NCBI GenBank assembly: GCA_030643485.1
Contig: DAOWLG010000030.1
Location: 1-36,252 of the forward strand
Source of the DNA: Candidatus Nealsonbacteria bacterium
GTDB lineage: Bacteria; Patescibacteriota; Minisyncoccia; Minisyncoccales; JAGMDC01
Reading direction: 5' to 3'
DNA: 36,252 nucleotides
Shown here: one piece after another, positions 3,531 to 36,252 of the stretch
How the letters are laid out: each line of letters opens with the position of its first letter
Numbering within the stretch: the first letter of the stretch is position 1
Made by a program: the position numbers and the translations under genes
Notes under the pieces: model-generated
Told to the model about the DNA's origin: nothing
Database searches by the model: none
What the model saw: only the letters and a program-made list of their open reading frames with translations

Positions 3531-3545
3531 GGAAAATGAGGAGTA

Positions 3546-3576
3546 AAGCAGGGGTCAAACCCCCTGTTTTTGTTTT
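3546..3576 (+). terminator. Rho-independent terminator
   Basis: AAGCAGGGG-tcaaac-CCCCTGTTT followed by a T-rich tract after the stop at 3530. Confidence 0.75.
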
Positions 3577-3590
3577 GGTTGAATTAAATC

Positions 3591-3619
3591 GGAATAAATC
3601 GGAAGTTGGACTTCCGACA
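3591..3619 (+). repeat. Direct repeat family A, copy 1
   Basis: GGAATAAATCGGAAGTTGGACTTCCGACA with internal palindrome TCGGAAGT-tgg-ACTTCCGA; recurs at 10932 and 12163. Confidence 0.9.
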
Positions 3620-3661
3620 ATTTACTAATTCAAAAACAATGCCTTTGTCGGGCTTTTTTAC

Positions 3662-3690
3662 TTGAATTTTGGAAGTGGAAAAGGTAAGAT
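3662..3690 (+). promoter_or_regulatory. Putative sigma70 promoter for radC
   Basis: TTGAAT-17-TAAGAT upstream of ATG 3720. Confidence 0.5.
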
Positions 3691-3719
3691 GAAACAAAGC
3701 AATTCAAAAGTTTTAAATT

Positions 3720-4403
3720 ATGGAAAAGTCATTTACTATTCACGATTTACCCAAAGAAGAGAGACCGCGTGAGCGATTGGTTAAGTTTGGTGAACAATCG
3801 CTTTCGGCTCAAGAATTGTTACAGATTATTTTGGGTCGCGGTATTGCTGGGGAATCGGTTGTAGTCACGGCGCAAAAATTACTATCGCAATTCGGCAGTT
3901 TTCAAAAATTAGCCGGAGCAAGTATTGAGGAAATGTCTTTAATCAAAGGAATCGGATTAGCAAAAGCGACACAGATAAAAGCCGTTTTTGAGATTGGCCG
4001 CCGTCTTTCCACTCAGACTGAGCCTTACAAAAGTAAAGAACTTACAGATCCAAAAAAAGTATATCAGTTGATAAAAAGCAAACTTAAAGATTATCACAAA
4101 GAACATTTTTACATTATTGTGCTTAACAGTAGGAATTGGTCAGTTGCAGAAGTTTCAGTTGGCAGTCTTAACGCCAGCATTGTTCATCCGCGCGAAGTAT
4201 TCGCGGAAGCGATCAAAAACAAGGCGGCATCAGTTATATTTGTTCACAATCATCCATCTGGCAACCCCGAGCCATCAGAAGGCGATTTGATAGTAACAAA
4301 AAGATTGGTTGACGCTGGTAAAATTTTGGAAATAGAAGTGGTTGACCATATTATTATCACTAAAAATAGTTTTTTAAGCTTTAAGGAACATAAATTATTA
4401 TGA
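3720..4403 (+). CDS. radC: RadC (JAB/MPN domain) protein
   Basis: ERPRERL N-terminus, HhH GIGLAKA, VHPREVF and HNHPSGNPEPS..D...DHII JAB motif. Confidence 0.95.
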   Translation: MEKSFTIHDLPKEERPRERLVKFGEQSLSAQELLQIILGRGIAGESVVVTAQKLLSQFGSFQKLAGASIEEMSLIKGIGLAKATQIKAVFEIGRRLSTQTEPYKSKELTDPKKVYQLIKSKLKDYHKEHFYIIVLNSRNWSVAEVSVGSLNASIVHPREVFAEAIKNKAASVIFVHNHPSGNPEPSEGDLIVTKRLVDAGKILEIEVVDHIIITKNSFLSFKEHKLL

Positions 4404-6322
4404 AACCTAAAATAAACAAATACGATATTGAATTTTTAATTGATTATCTTAAAACTGGGAAAGAAATTCCGGAAGTTTATAAATACGCGCTTTTTCCGAC
4501 CAAGCAAAAAGAATACGAACTTGTCTATGCTGGAAAAATGCGAAAAGAAGATGTATTGGCGGACACCGAAGAAGCCAAGCCGGTGCCACTTCAAATTGAA
4601 AAGATTTTTAATGGCAAAAAATATCCTCTTTATTCAAAAGAGTGGCATAATCTTTTAGTTTTCGGCGACAATCTGCAAATCCTCAAAACTTTCAATGAAA
4701 ATAAAAATTCTTTGTATAATGGGGAGCTATCTAAAATAAAAGATAAAATCAAAGGCGAAGTAAAATTGATTTATATTGATCCGCCGTTTGCGACGAAAGA
4801 TGAATTTCAAAATAGAGAAGGCGCAAAAGCATACAACGACAAAAAGAAAGGAGCCGAATTTGTAGAATTTTTGCGCAGAAGGCTAATAGTTGCAAAAGAA
4901 TTACTCGCTTCAGACGGTTATATTTGTTGTCATTTGGATCAAAAAATGAATCATTATATAAAAATGGTAATGGACGAAGTTTTTGGAAAAAATCATTTTG
5001 CAAATGAGATTGTCTGGCGGTACTTTATGGGCGGTAAATCTAAAAATTTCTTTTCAAAAAAACACGATACAATTTACATATATTCTCAAAACGAAAAAGC
5101 AGAAATGAAAATATCTAACAGAGAAAGAATTTTAACTTATAAGCCAAACTTAATTGACGAAAATTCAACAATTAAAAAATATGAGGCTGTATGTAAAGAA
5201 ACAAGCGAAAAAAGAGACTTTTATACTAGCGAAGTTAAAGAAGATGATGTGTGGGAAATTTCAGGCGTGTTTAATATGGGGAACGAGTATCAAAATTATC
5301 CGACACAAAAGCCGGAGGAACTTTTGCAAAAATTAATTTTAGCAATGACAAATAAAGGTGATCTCGTTTTAGATTTTTTCTGCGGTAGCGGGACAACGCT
5401 TGCGGTTGCCGAGAAACTTGGTCGCCGCTGGATTGGCTGTGATATTGGTAAATTGGCGATATATACAACACAAAAGCGATTGTTAGAAATTGACAAAAGT
5501 AAAAATTTAGAAAATCCAAAAAAGAAATATGGCAAGCCAGCAAAATCTTTTGCTGTTGTTACTTCTGGACTTTATGATCTTGGAAAAATTTTTGCTCTGA
5601 AAAAAGACGAGTATATTCGTTTTGTGAAAGATTTGTTTGAGATTGAGGAAGCAAAGCGAGATAAAATTGGTGGTGTAGAGATTGACGGAACAAAACGCGG
5701 ATTCCTTGTAAAAATTTTTCCGTATTGGGAGTTAAAAAATATTAGTGTTGATGAAAAATATTTGCGAGAATTGCACAAAAGTATTGGAAAGAAAATTGAT
5801 AGCAGATTTTATATTATTGCTCCCGCAAACAATGTTGATTTTATTAGCGATTATCACCAAATAGATAATGTTTGTTATTACTTTTTGAAAGTCCCGTATC
5901 AAATTATTAAAGAATTACATAAAGTGCAGTTCAAAAAATTTTGTCAACCGCAAAGCAAAAGAAATATCAATGATTTAGATGAAGCAGTTGGCTTTCATTT
6001 TATCCGCCAGCCAGAAGTGAAATCAGAAATCAAAAAATTAAAAGACAAAATAGTTTTGAAAATTAAAAAGTTTGAGTCCGCGTATTTGCAAGACGAAACC
6101 GGCGAGAAACTCAAGAATTTTGAAAGTTTGGCAATGATTTTGCTGGATAAAAACTATAAAGGGGACGAATTTATGATGGATGATTATTATTTTGCGGAAG
6201 ATATTGCGGATAATAAATATAAATTGGAATTTTTAGAAAAAGATTGCGGTAAGCAGATTATGGCAATTTATATTGATATTTACGGCAATGAATTCCGGGA
6301 AATTTTTAAGATAAAAATATGA
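4400..6322 (+). CDS. mod: Type III R-M modification methyltransferase (beta class)
   Basis: GDNL, IYIDPPF, YPTQKPEELL, LDFFCGSGTT; lies upstream of a res-like helicase. Confidence 0.9.
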   Translation: MKPKINKYDIEFLIDYLKTGKEIPEVYKYALFPTKQKEYELVYAGKMRKEDVLADTEEAKPVPLQIEKIFNGKKYPLYSKEWHNLLVFGDNLQILKTFNENKNSLYNGELSKIKDKIKGEVKLIYIDPPFATKDEFQNREGAKAYNDKKKGAEFVEFLRRRLIVAKELLASDGYICCHLDQKMNHYIKMVMDEVFGKNHFANEIVWRYFMGGKSKNFFSKKHDTIYIYSQNEKAEMKISNRERILTYKPNLIDENSTIKKYEAVCKETSEKRDFYTSEVKEDDVWEISGVFNMGNEYQNYPTQKPEELLQKLILAMTNKGDLVLDFFCGSGTTLAVAEKLGRRWIGCDIGKLAIYTTQKRLLEIDKSKNLENPKKKYGKPAKSFAVVTSGLYDLGKIFALKKDEYIRFVKDLFEIEEAKRDKIGGVEIDGTKRGFLVKIFPYWELKNISVDEKYLRELHKSIGKKIDSRFYIIAPANNVDFISDYHQIDNVCYYFLKVPYQIIKELHKVQFKKFCQPQSKRNINDLDEAVGFHFIRQPEVKSEIKKLKDKIVLKIKKFESAYLQDETGEKLKNFESLAMILLDKNYKGDEFMMDDYYFAEDIADNKYKLEFLEKDCGKQIMAIYIDIYGNEFREIFKIKI

Positions 6323-6666
6323 TAACTAAAATAGCGATTTTCCGCAAAAAGGAAATTAGAAAAATTATTTATCAAAATGAATGGTGGTTTTCTGTTATTG
6401 ATATAATAAAAGTGTTGACAGGCACGGAAAGACCAAGAAAATATTGGAACGATTTAAAGAAGAAACTTGTGGACGAAGGATATTTTCAGTTGTCCGAAAA
6501 AATCGGACAACTAAAATTATTATCTAACGACGGCAAAAAATATAAAACAGATTGCGCTAATACTGAAGGGATGTTTCGCATTATTCAATCAATCCCATCG
6601 CCAAAAGCAGAGCCGTTTAACGCGGACGAATTTTCTAAAACATTTGCAAAACAAAAAATTGCTTAA
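6319..6666 (+). CDS. Bro-N domain protein, probably shortened
   Basis: EIRK....EWWFSVIDII...PRKYWNDLK...DGKKYKTDCAN...RIIQSIPSPKAEPF; ends 15 aa after AEPF. Confidence 0.8.
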   Translation: MITKIAIFRKKEIRKIIYQNEWWFSVIDIIKVLTGTERPRKYWNDLKKKLVDEGYFQLSEKIGQLKLLSNDGKKYKTDCANTEGMFRIIQSIPSPKAEPFNADEFSKTFAKQKIA

Positions 6667-6678
6667 AAACAAATAACT

Positions 6679-9246
6679 ATGCCAGATATAAAAATATACA
6701 AAACACAAGATTTGGTTTTACAGATAAAGCAAAATTATAATCCAGCCAAACTTAATTTGCAAAAGTGGGTTGATTTTATTGATGTGCTTTGCGGTGATAG
6801 AGAATATCAAAAAGAAGCGATTAGAGACGCAATTATTTTTTTTGCGTCTGGTGAATACAAATCAATTGAGGATTTAGTTGAGGAAAATTTTAGAAAAAAC
6901 AATGAATTGCAAAAAAGATATAAAAGTATTCGCGATTATCAAAAAAATTTGCCATTGCCGCGTAAATTGTCAGCAGTTATTGATTTGGCGACCGGCACAG
7001 GTAAAAGTTATGTGATTTACGGCATTGCGCAAATTGCTTTGGGTATTGGCTTGGTTGATAAGGTTTTGGTACTTTGTCCATCGCTTACAATTAAATCAGG
7101 ATTAAGAGAGAAGTTTGAAAAACTTTCTGGCGACGACAAAATCAAAGCAACTTTGCCTGAAGATGTTATTTTCAAAAATCCGAGAATTATTGACGCAAAC
7201 AGCACGATTAAAAAAGGCGATATTTGCGTAGAAAATATCCACACCGTTTATGAGAGAACGGGGTCGTCAATAAACGACAGCTTGAAAGGAAACGGCGAGC
7301 GGGTTTTAGTGTTGAACGATGAAGTTCATCATGTGTATAATACAACAGGGGATAAGGATGTAAAAAAGTGGAGACAGTTTTTACTTAATCCCGATTTCAA
7401 TTTCAAATACATTTTAGGACTTACTGGCACGGCTTATCTTGATGACGAGTATTTTAACGATGTTATTTATCGCTATTCAATACGACAAGCCGTTGATGAC
7501 AAAGTGGTTAAGTCGGTTGATTATGTTGCAGAAGATGAGGTCTCTTCAAACCCAACAGAAAGAAAAAACGAAAAATTTCAAAAAATTTACGACAACCACG
7601 ATGAGTTTGTAAAAAAGTATCGGCTCATTAAGCCACTCACAATTTTAGTTACAAAAGATATTTCTAAAGCAAAAATACTTCGGGAAGATTTGATTGATTT
7701 TTTGGAAAAATGGGAAAAAATATCACGGAAAGCAGTTGAGAAAAAAGTTTTAATTGTTACTTCGCACAAAGACCATAAGAAAAATGTTTTGAAATTGAAA
7801 AATGTTGATAATAAAGAGAGTTCTGTTGAGTGGATTGTTTCCGTTTCTATGCTTACAGAGGGTTGGGATGTAAAAAATGTTTTTCAAATTGTGCCGTGGG
7901 AAGATCGTGCTTTCAACTCTAAGCTTTTAATTGCTCAAGTTTTAGGTCGCGGGCTTCGCATACCGGAAGAATACAAATCGCCACAACCAAAAGTCAGAGT
8001 TTTTAATCACGACGCATGGAGCCGAAATATTCGCGGTTTAGTTGATGAGATTTTAGAAATTGAAATGCGTTTGACGAGCGAAATTTTGACTTCCAGTGAG
8101 AGGAAAAAATATAATTTTAATCTCTACAACATAAATTACGAAAAAATAGAAAAGCCAATCAAGTCTAAGGAAAATACGCAGATTTTTGATTACTCTAAAG
8201 GAATTATCAAGTTGGTATCAAAAGAGTTGAAAATAAGCAAAGAAACAGAATATGAAGATTTATATGGAGTTATCAAACCAAAGACAACAATTATTCAGAG
8301 AAATATTTTTAGTGTAGATGAAATTGTTAATAAAATAATAGCAACTTTTGAAATACGGGATTTTGAAGCAAAAATTAGATTTCCAAAAGGAGATTATGAT
8401 AAAGAAAATTTGCCACCTAAAAATGAAATAAGGGAAATCATTATTCGGTCAATGAAAGAGGTCGGTATTTCTGGTGGATTTTTGGATGAAGAAAATGCTC
8501 TCAAAATTTTTCAAGCATTTCAGACGCTTTTCCGAAAGAGAAGCTCCACAATTGTATTTGAAAGAAAAGTAAATGAACCTTTTTTGGTCAAAACAAAACA
8601 AATGCAAAAAGAAGGTGTCACCGTAGGCGCAATAAAATACGGCTCAACAGTTTTTTATACAGAAAATTTCAAAGATGAGTGTAGCAATGGTATGATTGAT
8701 ATTTTGAAAGATATAATTGATGACGAGAGTTTACCAAGAAGTGCGAGTAAATAAGTAAATTTTTATTGTTTCAAAACGCCAGTTGATGTTGTTTTGACCA
8801 AAAAAGAACCAGAAAGAAAGTTCGTTGAAGCGATTGTTAGCCCAAAAGTATGCGAAAAAATTGATGCTTGGATAAAATCGAGGGACATGGGATTTTATAG
8901 TATTGAGTATTCGTGGAGAAAAGGAGAACACCCGACGCAAGATAATTTTAATCCTGATTTTTTCTTAAAGTTTGGCGAAAATATCGTTGTCATTGAAGCC
9001 AAGGCGGATGGTGATGATTCTGACGAAAATAAGGCAAAGTATCGCTGGGCAAAACAGCATTTTAAGACACTGAATGAGGAATTAAAAAAGAATAATATTA
9101 AACAGCAATACTTTTTTCATTTTTTGAGTCCGAATAGCTATGCCGAATTTATAGAATATTTTTGCGACAATAGGATATTTGACAAGAAATTTCGTAGTAA
9201 AATTGAGGATTTATTGGACAGGGGACAAGGCGTGAAGTATGACTAA
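6679..9246 (+). pseudogene. res: Type III restriction subunit (SF2 helicase + C-terminal PD-(D/E)xK nuclease), split by in-frame TAA at 8752-8754
   Basis: ATGTGKS, DEVHH, MLTEGWDV, QVLGRGLR. The frame continues ASK*VNFYCFKTPVDVVLTKKEPER into the FNPDFF...IEAK nuclease domain. Confidence 0.88.
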
Positions 9247-9290
9247 CAAAGAATAGGAATACAAGATACGCACTTTTTTAATTTAATTAT

Positions 9291-9449
9291 TTTGTTGATA
9301 AAATCCTTGCCATCACCAAAGACGACGACTATCTCCAAAACGAAGCCAAACAAAAAAAGGTCAAAGAATACGAAGACCAAATTGACAAAATGGTATATAA
9401 TCTTTACGGGTTGACCAAAGAGGAAATTGAGATAGTGGAAAGGTATTGA
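9291..9449 (+). pseudogene. Orphan C-terminal remnant of a type IIG/Eco57I-like R-M enzyme
   Basis: Reads FVDKILAITKDDDYLQNEAKQKKVKEYEDQIDKMVYNLYGLTKEEIEIVERY*, the typical ID..VY.LYGLT.EEI.IVE C-terminus, with no N-terminal part upstream. Confidence 0.8.
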
Positions 9450-9474
9450 AATTTTATTAAAATAGTGATATTCT
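9446..9474 (+). promoter_or_regulatory. Putative sigma70 promoter with extended -10
   Basis: TTGAAA-17-TATTCT with TG at 9466-67; ATG at 9484, so the mRNA is nearly leaderless. Confidence 0.55.
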
Positions 9475-9483
9475 AAAATTGAT

Positions 9484-10101
9484 ATGAAAATTCAATCTCA
9501 GGAAATTAAACAATTAAATATTACTGCGGTTTTTACAGAAGTTGATCATACCTCTATCACTCCTGAAAAAATGAGAAAAATTTTTGAATTAACTAAAGAA
9601 GAAAATAAAACAAGCCCCTTTTTAGAGCCATCTCAATTTATAAAAATTTTAGGAATACCTAGTAGACAAAAGGATATTATTATTGAAGGTGAGAGATTAA
9701 GGGTTAATGATAAAGGAGGTAAAAAACCTCAAGATTCAGATCTAATAAGGTATTTTCAAATTGCATTTAGAGAACTTACAAAGAAAGATAAACTTATTGC
9801 TTATGGTTTTAATTATGATATATTAGTAATTTCTGAAAAGAAAGTAGATTTTAAGAAATTTTTAGGAACAAATGTAATCAAAAGCTTGTCGGCCACCTCT
9901 ATCTTAGAGAGCGGATTAAGAGTTTTATCTACTAAAAAGGAAAAACGTTACGATTTACAAATTTCTCCTACAGGCGACCCTAAGAGATTATTATTTCATT
10001 TAAATGTTCATTGTCCGTTTAAAAAAATCGATTTTGAGCAGTTACAAAAGCAATTCAAGGAAAACTATTTAAGCTTGATTAAAATAATTGAAAAAATTTA
10101 A
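9484..10101 (+). CDS. Hypothetical protein, TIGR04255-like alpha/beta family (tentative)
   Basis: 205 aa with a LIAYGFNYD strand and LFHLNVH near the C-terminus; first gene of a tight three-gene operon. Confidence 0.5.
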   Translation: MKIQSQEIKQLNITAVFTEVDHTSITPEKMRKIFELTKEENKTSPFLEPSQFIKILGIPSRQKDIIIEGERLRVNDKGGKKPQDSDLIRYFQIAFRELTKKDKLIAYGFNYDILVISEKKVDFKKFLGTNVIKSLSATSILESGLRVLSTKKEKRYDLQISPTGDPKRLLFHLNVHCPFKKIDFEQLQKQFKENYLSLIKIIEKI

Positions 10102-10108
10102 AGTCGAT

Positions 10109-10642
10109 ATGGACTCCTTAATTTTTCAAACAAAAACATCTGACATAAACAGCAAACAATTTTTTGATACTGATCAGGATTTTTTTGTTGGTCATGGAGG
10201 CATAGAATTACCGTCCGGCGTGCTTCCTGCAGAAGAAATAGATATACAAGGATTACTTTCTCAATATCGAACTTCTGTTGATTTAGAAATTCAATATTTA
10301 AAAAACCAAATTACTTCACTAACAGGAGAAATTATGTTTCAATCACAAATTATCCGAGAGTTACAAGAAAGAAAAATAGTTCCTGTCCAGAATTTACGGT
10401 CTTCAAAATTACACTTAAAAGAACCTCTATATATTTCAGTAGAATGTAGTAATGGGATTTTTGTTGCGTTTTCGGATGATTTAAATTTATATGGTCAAGG
10501 CGAAACCGAGTTAAATGCAATTAGAGATTTTTGTAAAGAAATAGAAAATTTATATTTTGACCTCAAAAAGTCAAAAAATAAACTTGGTAAAGTGATGAAG
10601 GAAAACTGGCAATTTTTTAAAAATATAACAAAAGAAACATGA
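10109..10642 (+). CDS. HicB-like antitoxin with long N-terminal extension
   Basis: C-terminal EPLYISVE...FVAFSDDLNLYGQGETELNAIRDF is a HicB-like fold. ATG 10109 preferred over TTG 10088. Confidence 0.65.
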   Translation: MDSLIFQTKTSDINSKQFFDTDQDFFVGHGGIELPSGVLPAEEIDIQGLLSQYRTSVDLEIQYLKNQITSLTGEIMFQSQIIRELQERKIVPVQNLRSSKLHLKEPLYISVECSNGIFVAFSDDLNLYGQGETELNAIRDFCKEIENLYFDLKKSKNKLGKVMKENWQFFKNITKET

Positions 10643-10929
10643 TGCAATTAAAGAAAAAAGAATTTGCGACTATTGTAAATAAATTAAGAAGAAAATTTGA
10701 AGTAGAGGAAGGACATACGGGACATTGGCAGATAAAATTTTTTTATCAAGGGAAATTTGTTGGCAGAACAAAATGTTCGGAAGGAAAAGGAGACATTCCT
10801 CCAATAATTGTCCAAAGAATGAAAGGTCAATTATACCTTGCTGACGATAAAGAACTCGCAGATTTTAAAAATTGTCCATTAAGTTGTGAAGAGTATATTG
10901 TACTATTAAAGCAAAGAAAATTTATATGA
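10639..10929 (+). CDS. HicA-like toxin
   Basis: Small basic protein with FEVEEGHTGHWQIKF...RTKCSEG..DI pattern; ATGA overlap with the HicB-like gene. Confidence 0.6.
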   Translation: MMQLKKKEFATIVNKLRRKFEVEEGHTGHWQIKFFYQGKFVGRTKCSEGKGDIPPIIVQRMKGQLYLADDKELADFKNCPLSCEEYIVLLKQRKFI

Positions 10930-10931
10930 GT

Positions 10932-10958
10932 GGAATAAATCGGAAGTTGGACTTCCGA
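10932..10958 (+). repeat. Direct repeat family A, copy 2
   Basis: GGAATAAATCGGAAGTTGGACTTCCGA, identical to 3591-3617, 2 nt after the toxin stop. Confidence 0.9.
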
Positions 10959-10993
10959 AAGATTAATTATGTCAAATATTTTTGCTTATCCAC

Positions 10994-11021
10994 TTGACAG
11001 GGTTTCTTTACACGCTATAAT
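10994..11021 (+). promoter_or_regulatory. Consensus sigma70 promoter, near-leaderless
   Basis: TTGACA-16-TATAAT, with ATG 8 nt downstream at 11030. Confidence 0.8.
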
Positions 11022-11029
11022 AGAAGTAT

Positions 11030-11815
11030 ATGGTTATAAATCTACACAAAAAAATTAAATTATTGAGGCGAGAAAACGGTTTCTCGCAGGAGTATATGGC
11101 TAAAGCATTGGGAATGTCCCGCCCTACTTATATGCAAATAGAAACCGGGGAGCGGGAATTAACAATATCCGAAGCAAAAAAGCTTGCCAGTATTTTTGGC
11201 ATGCGATTGGAGGATTTTTTGGCAGGTAAAGATACCGCAAAAGTAGAGGTCGTATTTGAAAAAGGCAAAAGAAAAAAAGAAAAAGAACCGGAAATCAGAA
11301 TAAGCGTGCCTCAGCAGAATTTAAAAAAATTTAAAGAGGTCTTGCTTTATATTTTAGAAAACGTTGGAGCTCGTCCTAATATCGGCGAAACCGCGATTTA
11401 TAAATTGCTGTATTTTATTGATTTTGATTACTACGAGAAATTTGAAGAGCAGTTAATCGGCGCCAAGTATATTAAAAATTATTTTGGTCCAACACCGGTT
11501 GAATTCAAAAAAATAACTGACCAAATGATCGCGAGCAACGAGATTGAAAAAGTAAAAAGCAAGCATTTCCAGTATGAACAAAAAAAATATTTGCCGCGCC
11601 GTTCGGCTAATTTAAAAGTTTTATCAGCTCAAGAAATTCAACACATTGACAAAGTATTGAATCGTTTGGCATGGAAAAACGCCAAAGAATTGAGTGATTA
11701 TTCACACTTAGATACGCCATGGCAGGTTCATGAAGCAGGCGAAGAAATTAGCTACGAATCCGTATTTTATCGCGATAATGATCACTCAGTAAGAAATTAT
11801 GAAGATGAACTTTAA
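11030..11815 (+). CDS. XRE-HTH + DUF4065 (SocA/Panacea) antitoxin
   Basis: SQEYMAKALGMSRPTYMQIETG HTH; YKLLYFID...FGPTP...LSDYSH.DTPW DUF4065 motifs. Confidence 0.88.
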   Translation: MVINLHKKIKLLRRENGFSQEYMAKALGMSRPTYMQIETGERELTISEAKKLASIFGMRLEDFLAGKDTAKVEVVFEKGKRKKEKEPEIRISVPQQNLKKFKEVLLYILENVGARPNIGETAIYKLLYFIDFDYYEKFEEQLIGAKYIKNYFGPTPVEFKKITDQMIASNEIEKVKSKHFQYEQKKYLPRRSANLKVLSAQEIQHIDKVLNRLAWKNAKELSDYSHLDTPWQVHEAGEEISYESVFYRDNDHSVRNYEDEL

Positions 11816-12152
11816 AAATTTCCAGGAATTTGACAAAGATTGTAAAAAATTGTCAAAAAAATTCAAATCTTTGGACGAGGATTTGTCAGAGTTTAAAAAA
11901 GTTCTCAATAAATTTCCATTAGGTATTGGTAAACATTTTAATATTATTAGAAAAACTGGCTCTATATATATTATTAAAGCCAGATTTTTTTGTAAAAGTT
12001 TAAAGAAAAAAGACCTAAGAATTATTTACGCCTATATTAAAAATCATCAAACAGTAGAAATGATCGGCATTGAATTTATTGAAATTTACTTTAAGGGCGA
12101 TAGAGAAAACGAAAACCGCAAAAGGATTAAGAATTATTTGAAAAATTTCTAA
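11799..12152 (+). CDS. RelE/ParE-superfamily toxin
   Basis: EFDKDCKKLSKKF...KAR...LRIIYAY...IEIYFKGDREN; overlaps the antitoxin gene. Confidence 0.75.
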   Translation: MKMNFKNFQEFDKDCKKLSKKFKSLDEDLSEFKKVLNKFPLGIGKHFNIIRKTGSIYIIKARFFCKSLKKKDLRIIYAYIKNHQTVEMIGIEFIEIYFKGDRENENRKRIKNYLKNF

Positions 12153-12162
12153 ATCCTCCCGG

Positions 12163-12191
12163 GGAATAAATCGGAAGAAGGACTTCCGACA
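12163..12191 (+). repeat. Direct repeat family A, copy 3
   Basis: GGAATAAATCGGAAGAAGGACTTCCGACA, 27/29 identical to copy 1, 10 nt after the toxin stop. Confidence 0.9.
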
Positions 12192-12202
12192 TTACTTTTT
12201 TT

Positions 12203-12222
12203 AGAAATAGTGAGTAGCGGGG
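12203..12222 (+). repeat. Direct repeat B, copy 1
   Basis: AGAAATAGTGAGTAGCGGGG, exact copy at 13428-13447. Confidence 0.9.
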
Positions 12223-12335: not shown

Positions 12336-13397
12336 ATGACAAAAAATAATAAATTAGACCAGCGACTCCAGCAGATACCAGCTGAAATCTGGTCAAAAAT
12401 AACAAAGATTGATGAATTAAAGGGGCAGTGGGTTGCCGGGGCGCGATTAAGTCCTCAGGTTTTGGGCCGTCTTAAGCGGTCAGTTTTGATTACTTCAACC
12501 GGCGCTTCTACCCGTATTGAAGGTTCTCGTCTTTCCGACGAGGATGTAGAAAAATTGATGCGCAGTATTGATATTCAAAAATTCACGAACCGCGACAAGC
12601 AGGAAGTAAAAGGCTATTTTGAATTGCTTGAAAATGTTTTTAACTCTTGGAGATCGCTTAAGTTTTCAGAGAGCACTATTAAACATTTTCATAAAGAGCT
12701 TTTGAAATATGTAAAAAAGGATGAACTTCACAGGGGCGAATACAAAAAAACCGAGAACAAAGTTGAAATGATTGACGCGGCCGGTAAGTCCATTGGCGTT
12801 CTTTTTGACACTACGCCAGCATATCTTACTCCCAAAGAAACGCAGGAGTTAGTTGAATGGACTCAACAATCTTTTGCCGAGAAAAAATATCATCCATTTC
12901 TTATTGTGGGCAACTTTCTTGTTGAATTTTTGCAAATCCATCCATTTCAAGATGGTAATGGCCGGCTTAGCCGCGTTTTGACCAATCTGCTTTTACTCAA
13001 AGAAGGGTATTTGTATATGCCTTATATTTCTCATGAGAAGTTAATTGAGGATAACAAGCCGAATTATTATATGGCTTTACGGAGAAGCCAGAAGACTTTT
13101 AAGACCAATCGCGAGAACATTATTCCGTGGCTGGATTTCTTTTTGACTATTTTTTTTAAGCAGTCGCAAATGGCTGTTGAACTTCTGTCTAAGGAAAATA
13201 TAGAAAAACTTTTATCTAAAAAACAATTGGCAGTATGGCAATATTTTCAAGAGATAGAAGAAACTACCACTGGTGAAATTATTAAAAAAACAAAAATTGT
13301 CCGGCCTACTGTAAAGCAAGCACTGGATAGACTTCTACGTTTTAAAAAAGTTGAGCGCATCGGCCTGGGAAGAAGCACAAGATATAGGAAATTATAA
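12336..13397 (+). CDS. Fic family protein with C-terminal winged HTH
   Basis: Catalytic HPFQDGNGRLSR; N-terminal STRIEG inhibitory motif; C-terminal GLGRSTRY wing. Confidence 0.92.
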   Translation: MTKNNKLDQRLQQIPAEIWSKITKIDELKGQWVAGARLSPQVLGRLKRSVLITSTGASTRIEGSRLSDEDVEKLMRSIDIQKFTNRDKQEVKGYFELLENVFNSWRSLKFSESTIKHFHKELLKYVKKDELHRGEYKKTENKVEMIDAAGKSIGVLFDTTPAYLTPKETQELVEWTQQSFAEKKYHPFLIVGNFLVEFLQIHPFQDGNGRLSRVLTNLLLLKEGYLYMPYISHEKLIEDNKPNYYMALRRSQKTFKTNRENIIPWLDFFLTIFFKQSQMAVELLSKENIEKLLSKKQLAVWQYFQEIEETTTGEIIKKTKIVRPTVKQALDRLLRFKKVERIGLGRSTRYRKL

Positions 13398-13427: not shown

Positions 13428-13447
13428 AGAAATAGTGAGTAGCGGGG
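13428..13447 (+). repeat. Direct repeat B, copy 2
   Basis: AGAAATAGTGAGTAGCGGGG; with copy 1 it brackets the fic gene. Confidence 0.9.
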
Positions 13448-20823: not shown

Positions 20824-20888
20824 ATTAATAATAGTGTATTTTCATTATACCAAAAAATTGCCAAAATAACGATTTTTTGTTCATTTAT

Positions 20889-20920
20889 CTATTCCAATAT
20901 TCTCAAAAATTTGAGAATAC
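20889..20920. repeat. Palindrome family C, copy 1 (encodes the ArsR C-terminus)
   Basis: CTATTCCAATATTCT-CA-AAAATTTGAGAATAC. Confidence 0.75.
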
Positions 20921-21179
20921 TTTGGCCTCGGTCTGTAACTTTGTGCCTAACGTGAGATCCGTCTGACCGTTTTATTACCAAACCGGCAATAGCTAATCGC
21001 CTGATATGCTCTGATGCGGTTTTAAAATTTATCTCTAATTTTCTTGTGATATCAATCACTGAAAGTTCTGGTTCTCTTTTCAAAAGTTCCAAAATCTCAA
21101 TCCTTCCATGATTGGCAAAACCCTTAACAATTCGCTCTAATTGATGATAACTCTTTTGTTTATTTTTATTCTTTACCAT
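20889..21179 (-). CDS. ArsR-like winged-helix regulator
   Basis: GFANHGRIEILELL...LSV..I...L.INFKTASEHIRRL..AGLV. Confidence 0.85.
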   Translation of the reverse strand: MVKNKNKQKSYHQLERIVKGFANHGRIEILELLKREPELSVIDITRKLEINFKTASEHIRRLAIAGLVIKRSDGSHVRHKVTDRGQSILKFLRILE

Positions 21180-21263
21180 ATTAAATCTATCAAATTTACT
21201 ATTGAAATTAAAGTATTAAAATATCATTAAAATCACCATTAAGGTATTATAGCAAAAAGAATC

Positions 21264-21299
21264 AACTATTCCAATGTTCTTGAGAACATTGGAATAGTT
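21264..21299. repeat. Palindrome family C, copy 2
   Basis: AACTATTCCAATGTTCT-TG-AGAACATTGGAATAGTT, perfect 17-bp arms. Confidence 0.9.
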
Positions 21300-21352
21300 T
21301 TCTGTTTAACTTCCGAGAAAAACTTAAATTGAAAACCTTTTTTCAAACTCTC

Positions 21353-21390
21353 TAACTATTCTCAAATTCTCAAGAATTTGAGAATAGTTA
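21353..21390. repeat. Palindrome family C, copy 3
   Basis: TAACTATTCTCAAATTCT-CA-AGAATTTGAGAATAGTTA, perfect 18-bp arms. Confidence 0.9.
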
Positions 21391-21471
21391 ATGCCAACCT
21401 TCCTTTAAGTTAATTCTTTGACTTTTTTAAAATAAGCAATCCTCATAATGAATTTTATCAAAATCTCTATT

Positions 21472-21723
21472 TTAACCATTTATTGTCATATCCTTAAATT
21501 CTAAATCGCTTTCTCCCGAACCCCTGCAATCAATTCTTAATACAGCTATGTTTTCATTCGTCAAAGGTTTTATAGAATTATTTACAAAAGGATAGTACTC
21601 TTTGGCATCCTTAAAACCATGAATTATAATAACTACTGGCGGCTTCATTTTTTTTGGCAAGGATAACAAACCTGCAATTTTCTGATTTTTTTTATTATAA
21701 AATTCTACTTTTTGTTGTTTCAT
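21472..21723 (-). pseudogene. Truncated alpha/beta hydrolase
   Basis: From ATG 21723: PVVIIIHGF...VLRIDCRGSGESD..F.DMT, stopping before any G-x-S-x-G nucleophile motif. Confidence 0.75.
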
Positions 21724-21728
21724 ATTAT

Positions 21729-22928
21729 TTAAGAAACGCTCCTTAAACAAATGTCGCAGGCGCCGCAATTTTTTTTGGAAAATTTTTCTCCAAAATATCC
21801 AAGCAAAAATTTCCTTCGGCAAGTTCGGGTTTCGCAATATTCTACGACCTGATTAATCTTGCCTTGGACATTCAATCGCTGTTCAAGATTTTCAATCTGT
21901 CCAAGAAAATATTCATGCTTCATCTTATCCCCGTAAGAATAAAACAAAACGCATTCACTGGCAAGCCCGTCTCTGCCTGCGCGTCCGATTTGTTGATAAT
22001 ATTCTTCAAGTGTTTTAGGAAAAGTATAATGGATAATCAAACGAACATCTGGTTTATCAATACCCATCCCAAAAGCAATAGTGGCAACTATTATCCGAGC
22101 GCCGTCTTTAATAAACATTTCCTGAGTGCGCTTTCGGGTTTCTTTATCTAAACCAGCATGATATGGTAACGCGTTAAACCCGTTCTCCCTTAAATTTTTT
22201 GCAATATGTTCGGTATCCTTTCTGGAAAAACAATAAATAATTGCTGATTCGTCTTTGTGTTTTTCAAGAATTTGAACAATCTTGTAAAAAGTATTATAGC
22301 CTTTTTTTTGAAAAACAAAAAAGCTAAGATTTTTCCTGTCAAGACTGGAAATGGATATTTTGGGCTTGTCCAAAGAAAGCTGTTTTACAATATCTTCTCT
22401 TACTATTGGTGTAGCAGTAGCGGTAAGCGCAATCATAGGAACTCCTGGAAATCGCTTTTTAAGAAATTTAAGGTTGCGATAATCAGGACGAAAATCATGT
22501 CCCCATTCAGAAATACAATGCGCTTCATCAATAGCAATTAGATCTATTTTAAGTCCTTGTAAAAATCCCTGAAAATTTTCCAATGCCAACCGTTCCGGAG
22601 CCACATAAAGAATTTTAATTTTGCGTTCCATAAGTTGCTTTTGAATCTGGAAAATTTCTTTTGAAGCAAGAGATGAATTAATATACTCGGCTGCAATGCC
22701 ATTGGATTTCAAAGCGTCAACCTGATCTTTCATTAAAGAAATAAGAGGAGAAACAACTAATGTAAGCCCTTCAAATTTCAAAGCCGGTAATTGATAACAA
22801 AGCGACTTTCCTCCTCCCGCGGGCATTATTACAAAAGAATCTTTTCGCTCTAAAACATCAGTAATAATTCTTTCCTGAAAAGGCCTAAATTTTTTATGTC
22901 CAAAATAAGTGTTTAACAATTCCTGCAT
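21729..22928 (-). CDS. recQ: Short RecQ helicase (core + Zn domain only)
   Basis: MPAGGGKSLCYQLP, DEAHCISEWGHDFRP, ATIAFGMGIDK, QIGRAGRDG, CRR...CGACDIC at the C-terminus. Confidence 0.93.
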   Translation of the reverse strand: MQELLNTYFGHKKFRPFQERIITDVLERKDSFVIMPAGGGKSLCYQLPALKFEGLTLVVSPLISLMKDQVDALKSNGIAAEYINSSLASKEIFQIQKQLMERKIKILYVAPERLALENFQGFLQGLKIDLIAIDEAHCISEWGHDFRPDYRNLKFLKKRFPGVPMIALTATATPIVREDIVKQLSLDKPKISISSLDRKNLSFFVFQKKGYNTFYKIVQILEKHKDESAIIYCFSRKDTEHIAKNLRENGFNALPYHAGLDKETRKRTQEMFIKDGARIIVATIAFGMGIDKPDVRLIIHYTFPKTLEEYYQQIGRAGRDGLASECVLFYSYGDKMKHEYFLGQIENLEQRLNVQGKINQVVEYCETRTCRRKFLLGYFGEKFSKKNCGACDICLRSVS

Positions 22929-22944
22929 ATTAAATCATTATATC

Positions 22945-22973
22945 AAAAAACCGCCTATATTAAAAGGCGGCTT
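22945..22973 (-). terminator. Terminator after the DUF5320 gene
   Basis: Minus strand AAGCCGCCT-loop-AGGCGGTTTTTT. Confidence 0.7.
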
Positions 22974-22997
22974 CGCGATTTTTACCAACTCATTTCT

Positions 22998-23231
22998 TTA
23001 TTTTTGTTCTTTAAGTTCGGCTAATCGCTCTTTTATGGCTTTCAATTCTTGTTCTAAATCTTCTACATCTTCGTCTAATAATTCTTTTTCTTCTTTTTTA
23101 GTAAAAGATCTTCTCCATCCAAATCCGCGTCCAAATCCTCCTCCCCAGCCAAATCCATCGCCGCAGGGACCCATTCCCCTGCCAGTTCGCGGACCATAGC
23201 CCATAGGGCCTGTTCTATCTCTAAAAGGCAT
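22998..23231 (-). CDS. DUF5320-like Gly/Arg-rich protein
   Basis: MP..D.TGP.G.GP.TGRG.G.C followed by a C-terminal coiled coil. Confidence 0.88.
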   Translation of the reverse strand: MPFRDRTGPMGYGPRTGRGMGPCGDGFGWGGGFGRGFGWRRSFTKKEEKELLDEDVEDLEQELKAIKERLAELKEQK

Positions 23232-23245
23232 AATAATTTTTATTT

Positions 23246-23275
23246 ACCCCCACACTTATACATAAGTGTTGGGGT
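23246..23275. repeat. Hairpin in the DUF5320 leader
   Basis: ACCCCCACACTTAT-ac-ATAAGTGTTGGGGT. Confidence 0.7.
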
Positions 23276-23324
23276 TTAATCAATAACAACAGGATAATCC
23301 CCGACTAATGGACTATCTAATATG

Positions 23325-23353
23325 AGTATAAACCAATAACTATGCCGTGTCAA
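23325..23353 (-). promoter_or_regulatory. Sigma70 promoter for DUF5320
   Basis: Minus strand TTGACA-17-TATACT. Confidence 0.75.
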
Positions 23354-23358
23354 TCTTT

Positions 23359-24141
23359 TTATTCTCCTTGTTCGCTGTTCTTTTCTTTTAATATCTTTTT
23401 GCCCATTCCTTCAAATGCTCTTAAAATTTCCAGAGGCATGGCAAAGACAATGGTATTTGATTTGTCAGAGCTAATGTCATTAATGGATTGAAGAGTTCTT
23501 AAATGAAGAGCGCCGGTTGCTTCAGATAAAGTTCGCGCGGCTTTTGCCATATTATCAGCGGCAATTACTTCCCCTTCTGCCTTAATCACTATTGCTCTTT
23601 TTTCTCTTTCAGCTTCTGCCTGTTTGCCTATGGTTCTTTTCATTTCTTCCGGTAGAGTAATATCTTTTAATTCCACATTATCAACCTTGATACCCCAAGG
23701 GTCAGTAGCCTTGTCAATAACATCTCTAATGCTTCCTGAAACCTTGTCTCTCTGGGAAAGAAGCTGGTCCAAATCCACCTGGCCAACGGCATTTCTCATT
23801 GTGGTCTGGGCTAACTGAGAAATAGCATAGTAAAAATTTTCTACCTCTAAAACCGCTTTGTCTGCGTCTTTTACTTTGTAATAGATAACAGCGTTGACGC
23901 TCACTGAGATATTGTCTTTAGTTATCGCTTCCTGATTTGGCACATCTACTGCTTTAACCCGCAAATCAATTTTTTGGTAAAACTGAATTATCGGCAAAAC
24001 CAATCTCCAGCCGGGCTCCATTAAACCAGAATATTTGCCCAAAGTGAACTTAACTCCGTTTTGATACTGATTAATCTGCTTAATGGAAACCAGAATAATA
24101 AATGCGATTATTGATAAAATAAAATATGTTGTATTTATCAT
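23359..24141 (-). CDS. SPFH/band 7 (slipin/stomatin-like) protein
   Basis: N-terminal TM, ITKDN.SV.VNAV.YY, AQTTMRN..G, WGIKV..VELKD, QAEAERE.RA. Confidence 0.93.
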   Translation of the reverse strand: MINTTYFILSIIAFIILVSIKQINQYQNGVKFTLGKYSGLMEPGWRLVLPIIQFYQKIDLRVKAVDVPNQEAITKDNISVSVNAVIYYKVKDADKAVLEVENFYYAISQLAQTTMRNAVGQVDLDQLLSQRDKVSGSIRDVIDKATDPWGIKVDNVELKDITLPEEMKRTIGKQAEAEREKRAIVIKAEGEVIAADNMAKAARTLSEATGALHLRTLQSINDISSDKSNTIVFAMPLEILRAFEGMGKKILKEKNSEQGE

Positions 24142-24258
24142 ATTTTTTATATGTTTTTAACATCAATCATTTACTTAATTCGACCTTTTATATTTTTCTA
24201 TTTTACCAAATCTTATTTATTAAATCAAGAAAATATACAAGATGAGATTTAGATTTTA

Positions 24259-24292
24259 TCTATTCTAATATTCTCAAGAACATTGGAATAGA
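24259..24292. repeat. Palindrome family C, copy 4
   Basis: TCTATTCTAATATTCT-CA-AGAACATTGGAATAGA; both mismatches are G-T pairs. Confidence 0.88.
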
Positions 24293-24450
24293 CAATTGCT
24301 TTGATGTTTTTTGATTTACGGCGAAACCGTTGAAACTAATAGAAGGAATCAATAAAGGATTGACCCAGATAAATTATTCTTGAAAAGTGAAACCATCTAG
24401 AATAGATGGTTTTTTTTGTATTTTGTCTAAATTTATTGTATCATTTAACA

Positions 24451-29839: not shown

Positions 29840-29840
29840 T

Positions 29841-29977
29841 AAATTATCAATTATCAATTTTCAATTATCAATCAATTATCAAACTCCAATTTTCAAACGA
29901 TAATAAGATTTATTAAATTTTTTGAAAATTGAAAATTGGAATTTGATTGAAAATTGGTCATTGAAAATTGAAAATTT
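29841..29977. repeat. AT-rich quasi-palindrome D of heptamer units, copy 1
   Basis: (AATTWTC)n arm facing a (GAAAATT)n arm, between pilB and pilT. Confidence 0.85.
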
Positions 29978-31062: not shown

Positions 31063-32271
31063 ATGAAGTATTTTTATCAAGCAAGAACAAAAGAAGGAGA
31101 AGTTCGTTCCGGAACCGTGGAAGCCGCATCTCGAGAAGCGGCTTTAGAGGTTTTGCAAAAACATAATTTATTTATTACTGCTTTAGAATCGGCTAAGACG
31201 CAACCGGTTTTATCAAGGAAAATAACTTTTTTTGAAAGGGTTTCCAGAAAAGATATAGTTAATTTTTCAAGACAGTTATCAATTATGTTTAAGTCAAATG
31301 TTTCTTTATTGGAATCGTTGGAGACCATAGCCGAACAAGTAAAAAAAAGTGTTTTCAAGGAAAAAATTTTGGGATTGGCAAGCCAAATAAGAGGAGGAAC
31401 TTCTTTTTCCAAGGCGCTTAGTAGTGAGCCAAAACTTTTTTCCGGTTTTTATGTTAGTATGATTAAGTCAGGCGAGATATCTGGCTCTCTTTCAGACAGT
31501 TTAGATTATTTGGCTGACCATTTGGAAAGGGAATATAATCTTTCTTCTTCTATAAAAGGAGCAATGATTTATCCCGCTTTGGTAATATCCGTAATGATTG
31601 CAGTGCTGACTATTATGATGGTTTTTGTTATTCCAAGTCTCACGGAGACCCTGGAAGCCAGCGGACAGGAACTTCCTTTTGTTACAAAATTAGTAATAAT
31701 GGCTTCTGACTTTATGAGAAATCAAGGATGGATTTTTATCGTGTTTTTGGTTATTTTTGGCATCATTGGTTTTCGGTTCGCTAAAAGTAAAAGGGGCTTA
31801 AAATTTTTAGATAAAATTTCGTTATCATTGCCGCTTATCGGAAATTTTGTTAAAAAAGTGAACTTGTCTACTTTTGCAGAAAATCTTTCTACTTTAATTG
31901 GCGGTGGCGTGCCTATTACTCAGGCATTAGATATTACCGGCTCAATAGTAAAAAATTCCGTTTATAAAAAAATTATTAAAATAGCCAGAGACGAAGTGGA
32001 AAAGGGAGAGACCATAAGCTCGGTTCTTGTTAGGTTTCCCAAAGCATTTCCTCCCATGTTTTGCCAAATGATTTCAGTAGGAGAAAAAACAGGTAGTTTA
32101 GATAAGACATTAATGAATGTTGTGAGTTTTTATCAAAAAGAAGTGGACAGAACAATTAAGTCAATGTTGAGCATACTGGAGCCAATGTTAGTGGTGTTTT
32201 TGGGTTTAATTGTGGCAGGCATTATGGCCGCAGTTATGCTGCCTATGTATCAGATGATGGGCTCAATATAG
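31063..32271 (+). CDS. pilC: Type IV pilus platform protein (GspF/PilC)
   Basis: FSRQL, GE.SG.L, AMIYP, GEKTGSLD, LEP...PMY. Confidence 0.93.
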   Translation: MKYFYQARTKEGEVRSGTVEAASREAALEVLQKHNLFITALESAKTQPVLSRKITFFERVSRKDIVNFSRQLSIMFKSNVSLLESLETIAEQVKKSVFKEKILGLASQIRGGTSFSKALSSEPKLFSGFYVSMIKSGEISGSLSDSLDYLADHLEREYNLSSSIKGAMIYPALVISVMIAVLTIMMVFVIPSLTETLEASGQELPFVTKLVIMASDFMRNQGWIFIVFLVIFGIIGFRFAKSKRGLKFLDKISLSLPLIGNFVKKVNLSTFAENLSTLIGGGVPITQALDITGSIVKNSVYKKIIKIARDEVEKGETISSVLVRFPKAFPPMFCQMISVGEKTGSLDKTLMNVVSFYQKEVDRTIKSMLSILEPMLVVFLGLIVAGIMAAVMLPMYQMMGSI

Positions 32272-32275
32272 AAAT

Positions 32276-32408
32276 AATTTTCAATTTTCAATGACCAATT
32301 TTCAATGAATTTTCAATGATTCAATTTTCAATTAAAAAATTAATTGATTTGTTTGAAAATTGAAAATTGATAATTGATTGGTAATTGAAAATTGATAATT
32401 GAAAATTT
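32276..32408. repeat. AT-rich quasi-palindrome D, copy 2 (inverted relative to copy 1)
   Basis: 32276-32306 is the exact reverse complement of 29946-29976; 32367-32408 matches the reverse complement of 29841-29882 at 40/42. Confidence 0.88.

Positions 32409-35180: not shown

Positions 35181-36252
<1,072 letters not shown>

What the first reader, a model, noticed from the sequence alone, without database searches (positions are those of the whole stretch)
3591..12191. Defence island partitioned by three direct copies of a 27-29 bp palindrome-containing repeat
Seen: repeat A occurs in the same orientation at the left island edge and immediately after each toxin stop (10932, 12163), defining [radC-RM-triad] and [XRE/DUF4065-RelE] units that each have their own promoter. 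No integrase is in the window and the repeats lack attC GTT/AAC cores. Inference: tandem accretion of cassettes at a recombination site served in trans, an integron-like array with a different site.
Basis: partly seen in the sequence, partly recalled or inferred. Interest (0 to 1): 0.72.

Follow-up and report, generated by a model that had tools for sequence, protein, structure and literature searches.

The report
Defence modules stacked at host palindromes
Three copies of a short DNA hairpin do sit at the joints of this anti-phage gene cluster, but the same hairpin is scattered through the genome, and it was likely just the landing spot duplicated when gene modules inserted rather than the signal of a new integron-like system.

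Summary
The three direct copies are real (3591, 10932, 12163; 27/27, 27/27 and 25/27 identical). The palindromic core has 13 copies genome-wide and is one of several dispersed palindrome families. Its core matches the hairpins flanking a RAYT-like Y1 HUH gene in a relative (L119), and in relatives it lies mostly at housekeeping 3' ends, tRNAs and in frame inside genes. The cassettes do not own the site: 1 of 29 homologous XRE-Panacea modules, 0 of 15 Fic loci and 0 of 4 triad loci in other genomes carry it. Instead, 5 of 25 homologous modules sit between direct repeats of unrelated host sequence (ordinary genes: 11 of 570), the pattern of insertion with long target duplication. 'Unit 1' has unmarked internal joints, and the Fic gene beyond copy 3 has its own 20-bp direct repeat. 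No attC, excision joint or empty site was found. This scan reported both the Patescibacteria RAYT-palindrome system and target-duplication cassettes before, on other DNA.

The parts
3545..3570 (+). Terminator-like hairpin at the island's left edge; part of a 137-bp terminator-repeat-promoter leader shared with contig C58 (88%) and, for its first 88 bp, with C52 (93%)
3591..3617 (+). Repeat A copy 1 (8-nt remnant of a reiterated left arm plus 19-nt palindrome TCGGAAG-TTGGA-CTTCCGA)
3618..3719 (+). Promoter-like leader recurring before unrelated defence genes, with repeat A (C58, C57, C5, G006) or without it (C52:8800, G423)
3720..4403 (+). RadC/JAB protein
   Evidence: Pfam PF04002 E=2e-41
4400..6322 (+). 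Type III-like N6/N4 methyltransferase (Mod)
   Evidence: PF01555; PADLOC MTase_II/III
6319..6666 (+). Bro-N domain protein
   Evidence: PF02498
6679..9246 (+). Type III Res subunit interrupted by one in-frame TAA at 8752-8754 (ORFs 6679-8754 and 8794-9246); probably inactive (inference)
   Evidence: PF04851, REase_III, frame check; an X1 contig spans it with 0 differences
9292..9441 (+). Remnant of a type IIG R-M C-terminal tail: an internal module joint not marked by repeat A
   Evidence: 83% over 150 nt to the 3' end of the C58 Eco57I gene, 80% over 107 nt to C52 3451-3557; a similar piece by eye in G005
9484..10929 (+). Three-gene module with its own promoter-like site (9446-9474); likely TA-type (the C5, G446 and G606 relatives of gene 1 are followed by a small gene and a PIN-type gene)
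   Evidence: no significant family hits for the window proteins
10932..10958 (+). Repeat A copy 2 (27/27)
10968..12152 (+). Self-contained XRE-Panacea (11030-11815) plus putative RelE/ParE-like toxin (11799-12152) module with a 12/12 promoter (10994-11021); toxin homologues in 54 of 400 other genomes of the order
   Evidence: PF13274 and PF01381
12163..12189 (+). Repeat A copy 3 (25/27; loop AAGGA)
12203..12222 (+). Repeat B copy 1 (AGAAATAGTGAGTAGCGGGG), left of the Fic module
12336..13397 (+). Fic/SoFic-like gene: an accessory module beyond copy 3
   Evidence: PF02661; PADLOC SoFic E=4e-39; DNA homologues in 15 of 250 other genomes in varied contexts
13428..13447 (+). Repeat B copy 2 (20/20), right of the Fic module

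Best explanation
Repeat A is a dispersed hairpin of this genome, likely spread by a RAYT-like Y1 HUH enzyme, and it was likely duplicated as the target when self-contained defence and toxin-antitoxin modules inserted here one after another, without a dedicated recombinase. SHOWN: the repeat is dispersed (13 copies); a RAYT-like gene in a relative is flanked by the same core; homologous modules use other host sequences as flanking direct repeats; the island has further joints made of other recurrent pieces (terminator-promoter leader, IIG tail, repeat B). INFERRED: each module arrived as linear or circular DNA and was fixed by crossover or repair over 20-80 bp of local sequence, leaving a direct repeat. 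At this locus that sequence was the 27-bp repeat for the TA module, probably also for the radC-RM-triad block, and repeat B for Fic. The enrichment beside defence genes likely arises because copies sit in tRNA-3' and leader modules that are reused when defence genes are swapped. Hairpin nicking or fork stalling may add a hotspot effect (untested).
For: 13 core copies on 8 contigs among several other palindrome families. In G006 (10 copies) and G481 (14 copies) the copies examined lie in frame in CDS, at 3' ends of groEL and prfA (named by eye), and behind tRNAs. 21 of 26 scored RAYT-like loci have one matching palindrome on both sides and 19 also in frame inside the gene. L119's gene is flanked by TAAGGAAGTCGGACTTCCTTA, the same core. 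14 of 120 homologues show EVGLP, an in-frame reading of the core, at residues 58-62. Repeat A core in 1 of 29 homologous TA loci, 0 of 15 Fic loci and 0 of 4 triad loci from other genomes. Flanking direct repeats in 5 of 25 other TA loci against 11 of 570 ordinary G000 genes (p=3e-4). Two of these (L070, L090) and one Fic case (L155) duplicate the start of the downstream host gene, as described for long target duplication (PMC2853133).
Against: No empty site or near strain was available: the genus has only this genome, and X2/X3 hold only distant pieces. Duplication on insertion is therefore inferred, not seen. G000 and G481 have no PF01797 match (85% and 97% complete), so no cognate enzyme is shown in the genomes richest in the repeat. 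Some flanking repeats counted (L069, L091, L156, L163) are terminator-like motifs that could recur for other reasons, and 20 of 25 TA loci show none. Palindromes of this class touch the same TA module in four genomes (G000 both sides, G530 both sides, G481 and G601 at the toxin stop). Copies 2 and 3 begin their homology at the same base. Both points suggest more specificity than passive targeting predicts.
Confidence: 0.58

Rival explanations
1. Repeat A copies were added after the genes, by local RAYT-type copying into tolerant intergenic gaps at gene 3' ends; they mark joints but played no part in building the island (they may act as terminators or mRNA stabilisers).
For: In relatives most copies examined sit at housekeeping 3' ends with context-matched arm extensions. 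RAYT-like genes carry clustered own copies. Copies 2 and 3 are listed as terminator-like. Promoter leaders occur with and without the repeat.
Against: The same TA module is bracketed by direct repeats of host sequence in 5 of 25 other loci, so a bracket here is expected from its way of inserting. No PF01797 gene was found in G000.
Confidence: 0.22
2. Repeat A is a dedicated single-strand recombination site: a RAYT-like HUH enzyme (or one of the genome's four serine recombinases) acting in trans excises and stacks defence cassettes at it, as an integron does at attC.
For: Local subfamily with a common 5' breakpoint. Enrichment at defence genes. Class palindromes touch the TA module in four genomes. 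RAYT-like genes are themselves gene-between-two-palindromes units. TnpA-REP cleaves and recombines ssDNA in vitro (PMC8266576 passages). Short pieces next to copies 1 and 3 resemble the att flank of the serine-recombinase island at tRNA-Asn on C52.
Against: Cassettes do not carry the site in other genomes (1 of 29, 0 of 15, 0 of 4). Orientation is not fixed relative to cargo (C57, C5:1297 and C67 are reversed; RAYT flanks are 12 direct and 9 inverted). G530's flanking palindrome differs from its RAYT's main palindrome. No joint between copies is listed in the X1/X2 contigs, which bridge copies 2 and 3 intact (contigs drop rare forms). Internal joints are unmarked.
Confidence: 0.15
3. Repeat A is an operator bound by a regulator of defence genes.
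For: It lies upstream of promoter-like leaders of defence genes at five loci.
Against: Its distance to the -35 box varies between loci. It occurs in frame inside genes and at 3' ends in relatives. The TA module's conserved upstream inverted repeat begins after the repeat.
Confidence: 0.05

Closest known systems
Insertion with long target duplication of R-M genes (Furuta, Abe and Kobayashi 2010, PMC2853133; passages and Discussion read. Nobusato 2000 seen only in its reference list)
   Same: Defence genes between direct repeats of variable host sequence with no mobile-element genes; type III systems included; repeats can span translation starts or stops.
   Different: Here the duplicated target is itself a dispersed palindrome, several modules are stacked, the repeat (27 bp) is under their 30-bp cut-off, and no empty site was seen.
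REPtrons/TIRtrons: RAYT (TnpA-REP) or TIRYT with REP or TIR repeats (PMC3733652, PMC6006769, PMC8266576; passages read)
   Same: Short dispersed palindromes at gene 3' ends and in frame in genes; a cognate Y1 HUH gene flanked by its own palindrome in relatives.
   Different: No GTAG or CGTC foot; near-perfect stem with a 3-5 nt loop; low copy number (13); no cognate gene found in this genome. PMC6006769 reports no REP-like hairpins near subclass 2.1/2.3 genes, whereas these Patescibacteria genes are hairpin-flanked. I did not test their subclass.
Integron cassette arrays/CALINs with attC (features recalled)
   Same: Tandem accessory modules, often TA or defence, with a palindromic repeat after some genes and no local recombinase.
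   Different: No RYYYAAC...GTTRRRY pair, 27 bp instead of about 57-141 bp, modules have their own promoters and several genes, the site is not carried by homologous modules, and it is dispersed outside arrays.
pdif modules of Acinetobacter plasmids served by XerCD (recalled)
   Same: About 28-bp sites bracketing TA or accessory modules, with the recombinase in trans.
   Different: At best 12-16 mismatches of 28 to a recalled dif consensus; GC-rich hairpin; no 11-6-11 layout.

Membership tests
Integron attC array | RYYYAAC inverse core and GTTRRRY core at the two ends of a long imperfect palindrome | tested here: not met
   GTTRRRY only in the loop of copies 1 and 2; no RYYYAAC from -80 to +150
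Integron attC array | Site travels with the cassette | tested here: not met
   1 of 29 TA, 0 of 15 Fic and 0 of 4 triad loci in other genomes
Integron attC array | IntI-type tyrosine recombinase in the genome | tested here: inconclusive
   Two PF00589 genes on other contigs, Xer-like by eye; the IntI-specific insert was not tested
RAYT/TIRYT-associated palindrome (REP-like) | Dispersed short hairpin, intergenic at 3' ends, sometimes in frame in genes | tested here: met
RAYT/TIRYT-associated palindrome (REP-like) | Same palindrome flanks a Y1 HUH (PF01797) gene | tested here: met
   Met in a relative, not in this genome: L119 has the same core with a different outer arm and loop; L113 and L114 are one-pair variants. 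No PF01797 in G000.
Classical GTAG/CGTC REP | GTAG or CGTC tetranucleotide foot | tested here: not met
   No such conserved foot in the alignment of 13 copies
RAYT/TIRYT-associated palindrome (REP-like) | Cleavage or strand transfer by the cognate enzyme | not testable with these tools
   needs biochemistry
Insertion with long target duplication | Accessory genes between direct repeats, no mobility gene inside | tested here: met
Insertion with long target duplication | Target sequence varies between insertions of the same module | tested here: met
   Five different repeats in 5 of 25 other TA loci; Fic 3 of 13 above its own null, 2 of 13 at the stricter score
Insertion with long target duplication | Empty allele with a single copy in a close strain | tested here: inconclusive
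   No close strain found
pdif/XerCD module | dif-like 11-6-11 site | tested here: not met
   12-16 mismatches of 28 to a recalled consensus

The most novel reading that the evidence does not exclude
Patescibacteria RAYT-like HUH enzymes use their cognate palindromes as recombination hotspots that capture and stack defence and toxin-antitoxin modules, giving these domesticated transposases an integron-like job. This island and the four-copy C5 array would be its footprints.
Probability: 0.15. Interest if true: 0.8.

Novelty: new variant of a known kind. Interest (0 to 1): 0.3.

Why it matters
On the best reading it is a modest extension. It shows that small TA and Fic modules in Patescibacteria often sit between duplicated host sequence, and that a REP-like palindrome can be that sequence, which can be mistaken for a cassette array. 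If the novel case held, it would supply a long-sought function for RAYT-like enzymes and a route by which ultra-small bacteria refresh their defence genes without integrons. The island gives a defined substrate for that test.

Tried and rejected
Exact-pattern scans: genome contigs gave 4 loci (pilin-like array, an AAA-type gene on a 1.4-kb contig, tRNA flank, obgE-like 3' end; named by eye). Metagenomes gave 8 loci, all GC-rich and with the core inside a longer MITE-like unit. Viral contigs gave 0. The class sample gave 3 of 401 genomes including G000. None gave a second array or an empty allele. Read mapping listed no joint between repeat copies. Only contigs of one study were available, 45 joints were not shown, and X1 may be the window's own sample, so this is no proof of absence. 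X2 (share 0.09) and X3 (0.00) are not evidence of habitat. Family orthologues of the two flanking genes are not syntenic, so the ancestral empty locus could not be rebuilt. The idea that repeat B is the native sequence behind the surface-protein gene was considered. B recurs after varied genes in G004, G005 and C58, so it is another recurrent junction piece and the point is undecided. A link to the tRNA-Asn serine-recombinase att rests on 13-17 bp resemblances, and no tRNA-like closing half-site exists at the island; it is kept only as a lead. Toxin identity: both AlphaFold models had pLDDT under 50, the fold search found nothing at E<=0.001, the PDB profile search found nothing relevant, and the protein atlas did not answer. 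Literature searches listed no paper on these palindromes in Patescibacteria or on RAYT-driven cargo capture. The library lacks most subscription papers and no supplements were read.
Full report
Setting. The window is contig C47 of a 765-kb, 72-contig, 85%-complete genome. Titles and names of related records point to Patescibacteria; no call names G000 itself.

Observation. Repeat A is at 3591-3617, 10932-10958 (identical) and 12163-12189 (two loop changes), all on + and far above chance. It is a 19-nt hairpin preceded by GGAATAAA, a remnant of a reiterated left arm. Between the copies lie radC, Mod, Bro-N, a Res gene split by one in-frame stop, a three-gene module, and an XRE-Panacea gene with a 117-aa partner. 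A SoFic-like gene follows copy 3. The 'toxin' names are inferences: there are no family hits for the 96-aa ORF and one weak ParE hit among 28 homologues of the 117-aa ORF, and folding was uninformative. No tyrosine, serine or Y1 recombinase match is on this contig. The genome has two PF00589, four PF00239 and no PF01797 matches.

The repeat is dispersed. The core has 13 copies on 8 contigs and is one of several palindrome families. It is patchy in relatives: 1 of 7 other family genomes (10 copies), 2 of 400 other class genomes for the exact 19-mer, and G481 with 14 copies. The copies examined there sit in frame inside genes, at housekeeping 3' ends, behind tRNAs and in inverted pairs (genes named by eye).

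Its likely origin. PF01797 genes of the order are flanked by their own palindromes. Of 30 loci returned, 26 were scored and 4 were dropped by my ORF filter; one search shows both flanks in three of those four. 21 of the 26 have a matching palindrome on both sides (12 direct, 9 inverted) and 19 also carry it in frame. One gene (L119) is flanked by the repeat-A core with another outer arm and loop, and two by one-pair variants. Among 120 homologues, 47 contain a pentapeptide reading of core variants against 0 for reversed peptides. Most are one conserved position near residue 200 and are not independent; 14 show EVGLP in the variable loop (their DNA was not seen). Repeat A therefore looks like a REP/TIR-type palindrome of a RAYT-like enzyme (PMC3733652 and PMC6006769, passages), without a GTAG or CGTC foot. 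The scan noted this system before on other DNA.

Do modules own the site? The 117-aa gene has homologues in 54 of 400 other genomes. Of 29 loci returned, 1 has the core (G481, at the toxin stop, in that host's loop variant), and G481's second copy has none. Fic (15 loci) and triad (4 loci) homologues have none. I then asked whether these modules are bracketed by any direct repeat. Of 31 TA loci, 5 were dropped for truncation or a missing partner. Apart from the window, 5 of 25 exceed the 99th percentile of cross-locus pairs, each with a different sequence, against 11 of 570 ordinary G000 genes at the same score (p=3e-4). For Fic the count is 3 of 13 by its own null and 2 of 13 at the TA threshold. 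L070, L090 and L155 duplicate the start of the next host gene, and L081 has a perfect 82-bp repeat. This matches insertion with long target duplication (PMC2853133). Some counted repeats are terminator-like, and no empty sites were seen.

Other joints. 'Unit 1' is composite: an IIG-tail remnant (9292-9441) and a separate promoter-like site precede the triad. Copy 1 belongs to a 137-bp terminator-repeat-promoter leader shared with C58, where it heads a PLD-SNF2/Eco57I system. The promoter part occurs without the repeat at C52 and in G423. At the orthologous pbp2-tRNA-Glu locus G000 and G006 both keep the repeat and promoter while the cargo differs, so there the swap is behind the promoter, not at the repeat. 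Fic has its own 20-bp direct repeat.

GGAATAAA directly before the core is exact in 3 of 3 window copies and 0 of 10 others (p=0.0035), and copies 2 and 3 start their homology at the same base. Repeat A neighbours a defence/TA gene in 6 of 13 cases by library hits (Pfam or PADLOC) and 11 of 13 by eye. The figures for five other families are 8 of 63 (PADLOC or NCBIfam, after setting aside four housekeeping cross-hits: an ABC transporter, a kinase, TatD and ComEC) and 12 of 63 (p=0.011 and 1e-5). The libraries were not identical for the two sets, and the 13 copies fall in 8 loci and are not independent. Palindromes of this class touch the same TA module in G530 (both sides, inverted), G481 and G601, although G530's RAYT has a different main palindrome. 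The promoter module's homology with repeat-less copies begins right where the repeat ends. These points keep a hotspot or site-specific reading alive.

Reads. One run (X1, possibly the window's own sample) holds the stretch. Its contigs bridge copies 2 and 3 unchanged, depth of the long contigs is 12-23, and no joint between copies is listed. Contigs cannot show rare circles.

Membership. Not an attC array and not pdif (defining features recalled). It works like long-target-duplication insertion at a RAYT-type palindrome; the empty-allele criterion is untested.

Verdict. Observation confirmed; interpretation partly supported. Best explanation 0.58, later local copying 0.22, dedicated in-trans cassette site 0.15, operator 0.05. 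Five literature searches listed nothing on these palindromes in Patescibacteria or on RAYT-driven cargo capture; subscription papers and supplements were not seen. New variant of a known kind; interest 0.3.

Noticed in passing
window 12203-12222 and 13428-13447: A perfect 20-bp direct repeat (B) brackets the Fic module; its 14-nt core recurs at C58:5904 and in G004 and G005, the latter beside an IIG-tail remnant.
   Followed up: partly
window 8752-8754: The type III Res gene is broken by one in-frame stop; the Mod gene looks intact.
   Followed up: partly
L144 (G000:C52:1-19900): A 19-kb island with a large serine recombinase integrated at tRNA-Asn. The recombinase ORF ends inside the att, and the distal att is followed by the same terminator and repeat A as the window's left edge.
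   Followed up: partly
L143 (G000:C5:1-5800): A second array behind tRNA-Trp with four repeat-A copies (+,-,+,+) around Panacea, PIN-triad and AAA_31 genes; 62 bp of the tRNA 3' flank including the repeat is duplicated at 1613-1670.
   Followed up: partly
L145 and L197 (G000:C57; G006:C5): Orthologous pbp2-tRNA-Glu hotspot: the repeat and promoter are kept while the cargo differs (Eco57I-type versus radC plus a Mod-like gene).
   Followed up: yes
L070, L090, L155: TA or Fic modules inserted with a 55-80 bp duplicate of the downstream host gene's start.
   Followed up: partly
L035-L042: The exact core occurs inside a longer MITE-like unit in GC-rich soil metagenome contigs, far from Patescibacteria.
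   Followed up: no
window 20886-24302; 29840-29977 and 32263-32408; 35615-36252: Three more palindrome families in the window (TTCTCAAGAA type, TTTTCAA-iterated inverted arrays, GAGACCCGTTCTC type).
   Followed up: partly
L109, L113-L142: RAYT-like genes of the order each carry their own palindrome upstream, in a variable loop and at the stop; several match other palindrome families of G000, which itself has no PF01797 hit.
   Followed up: yes
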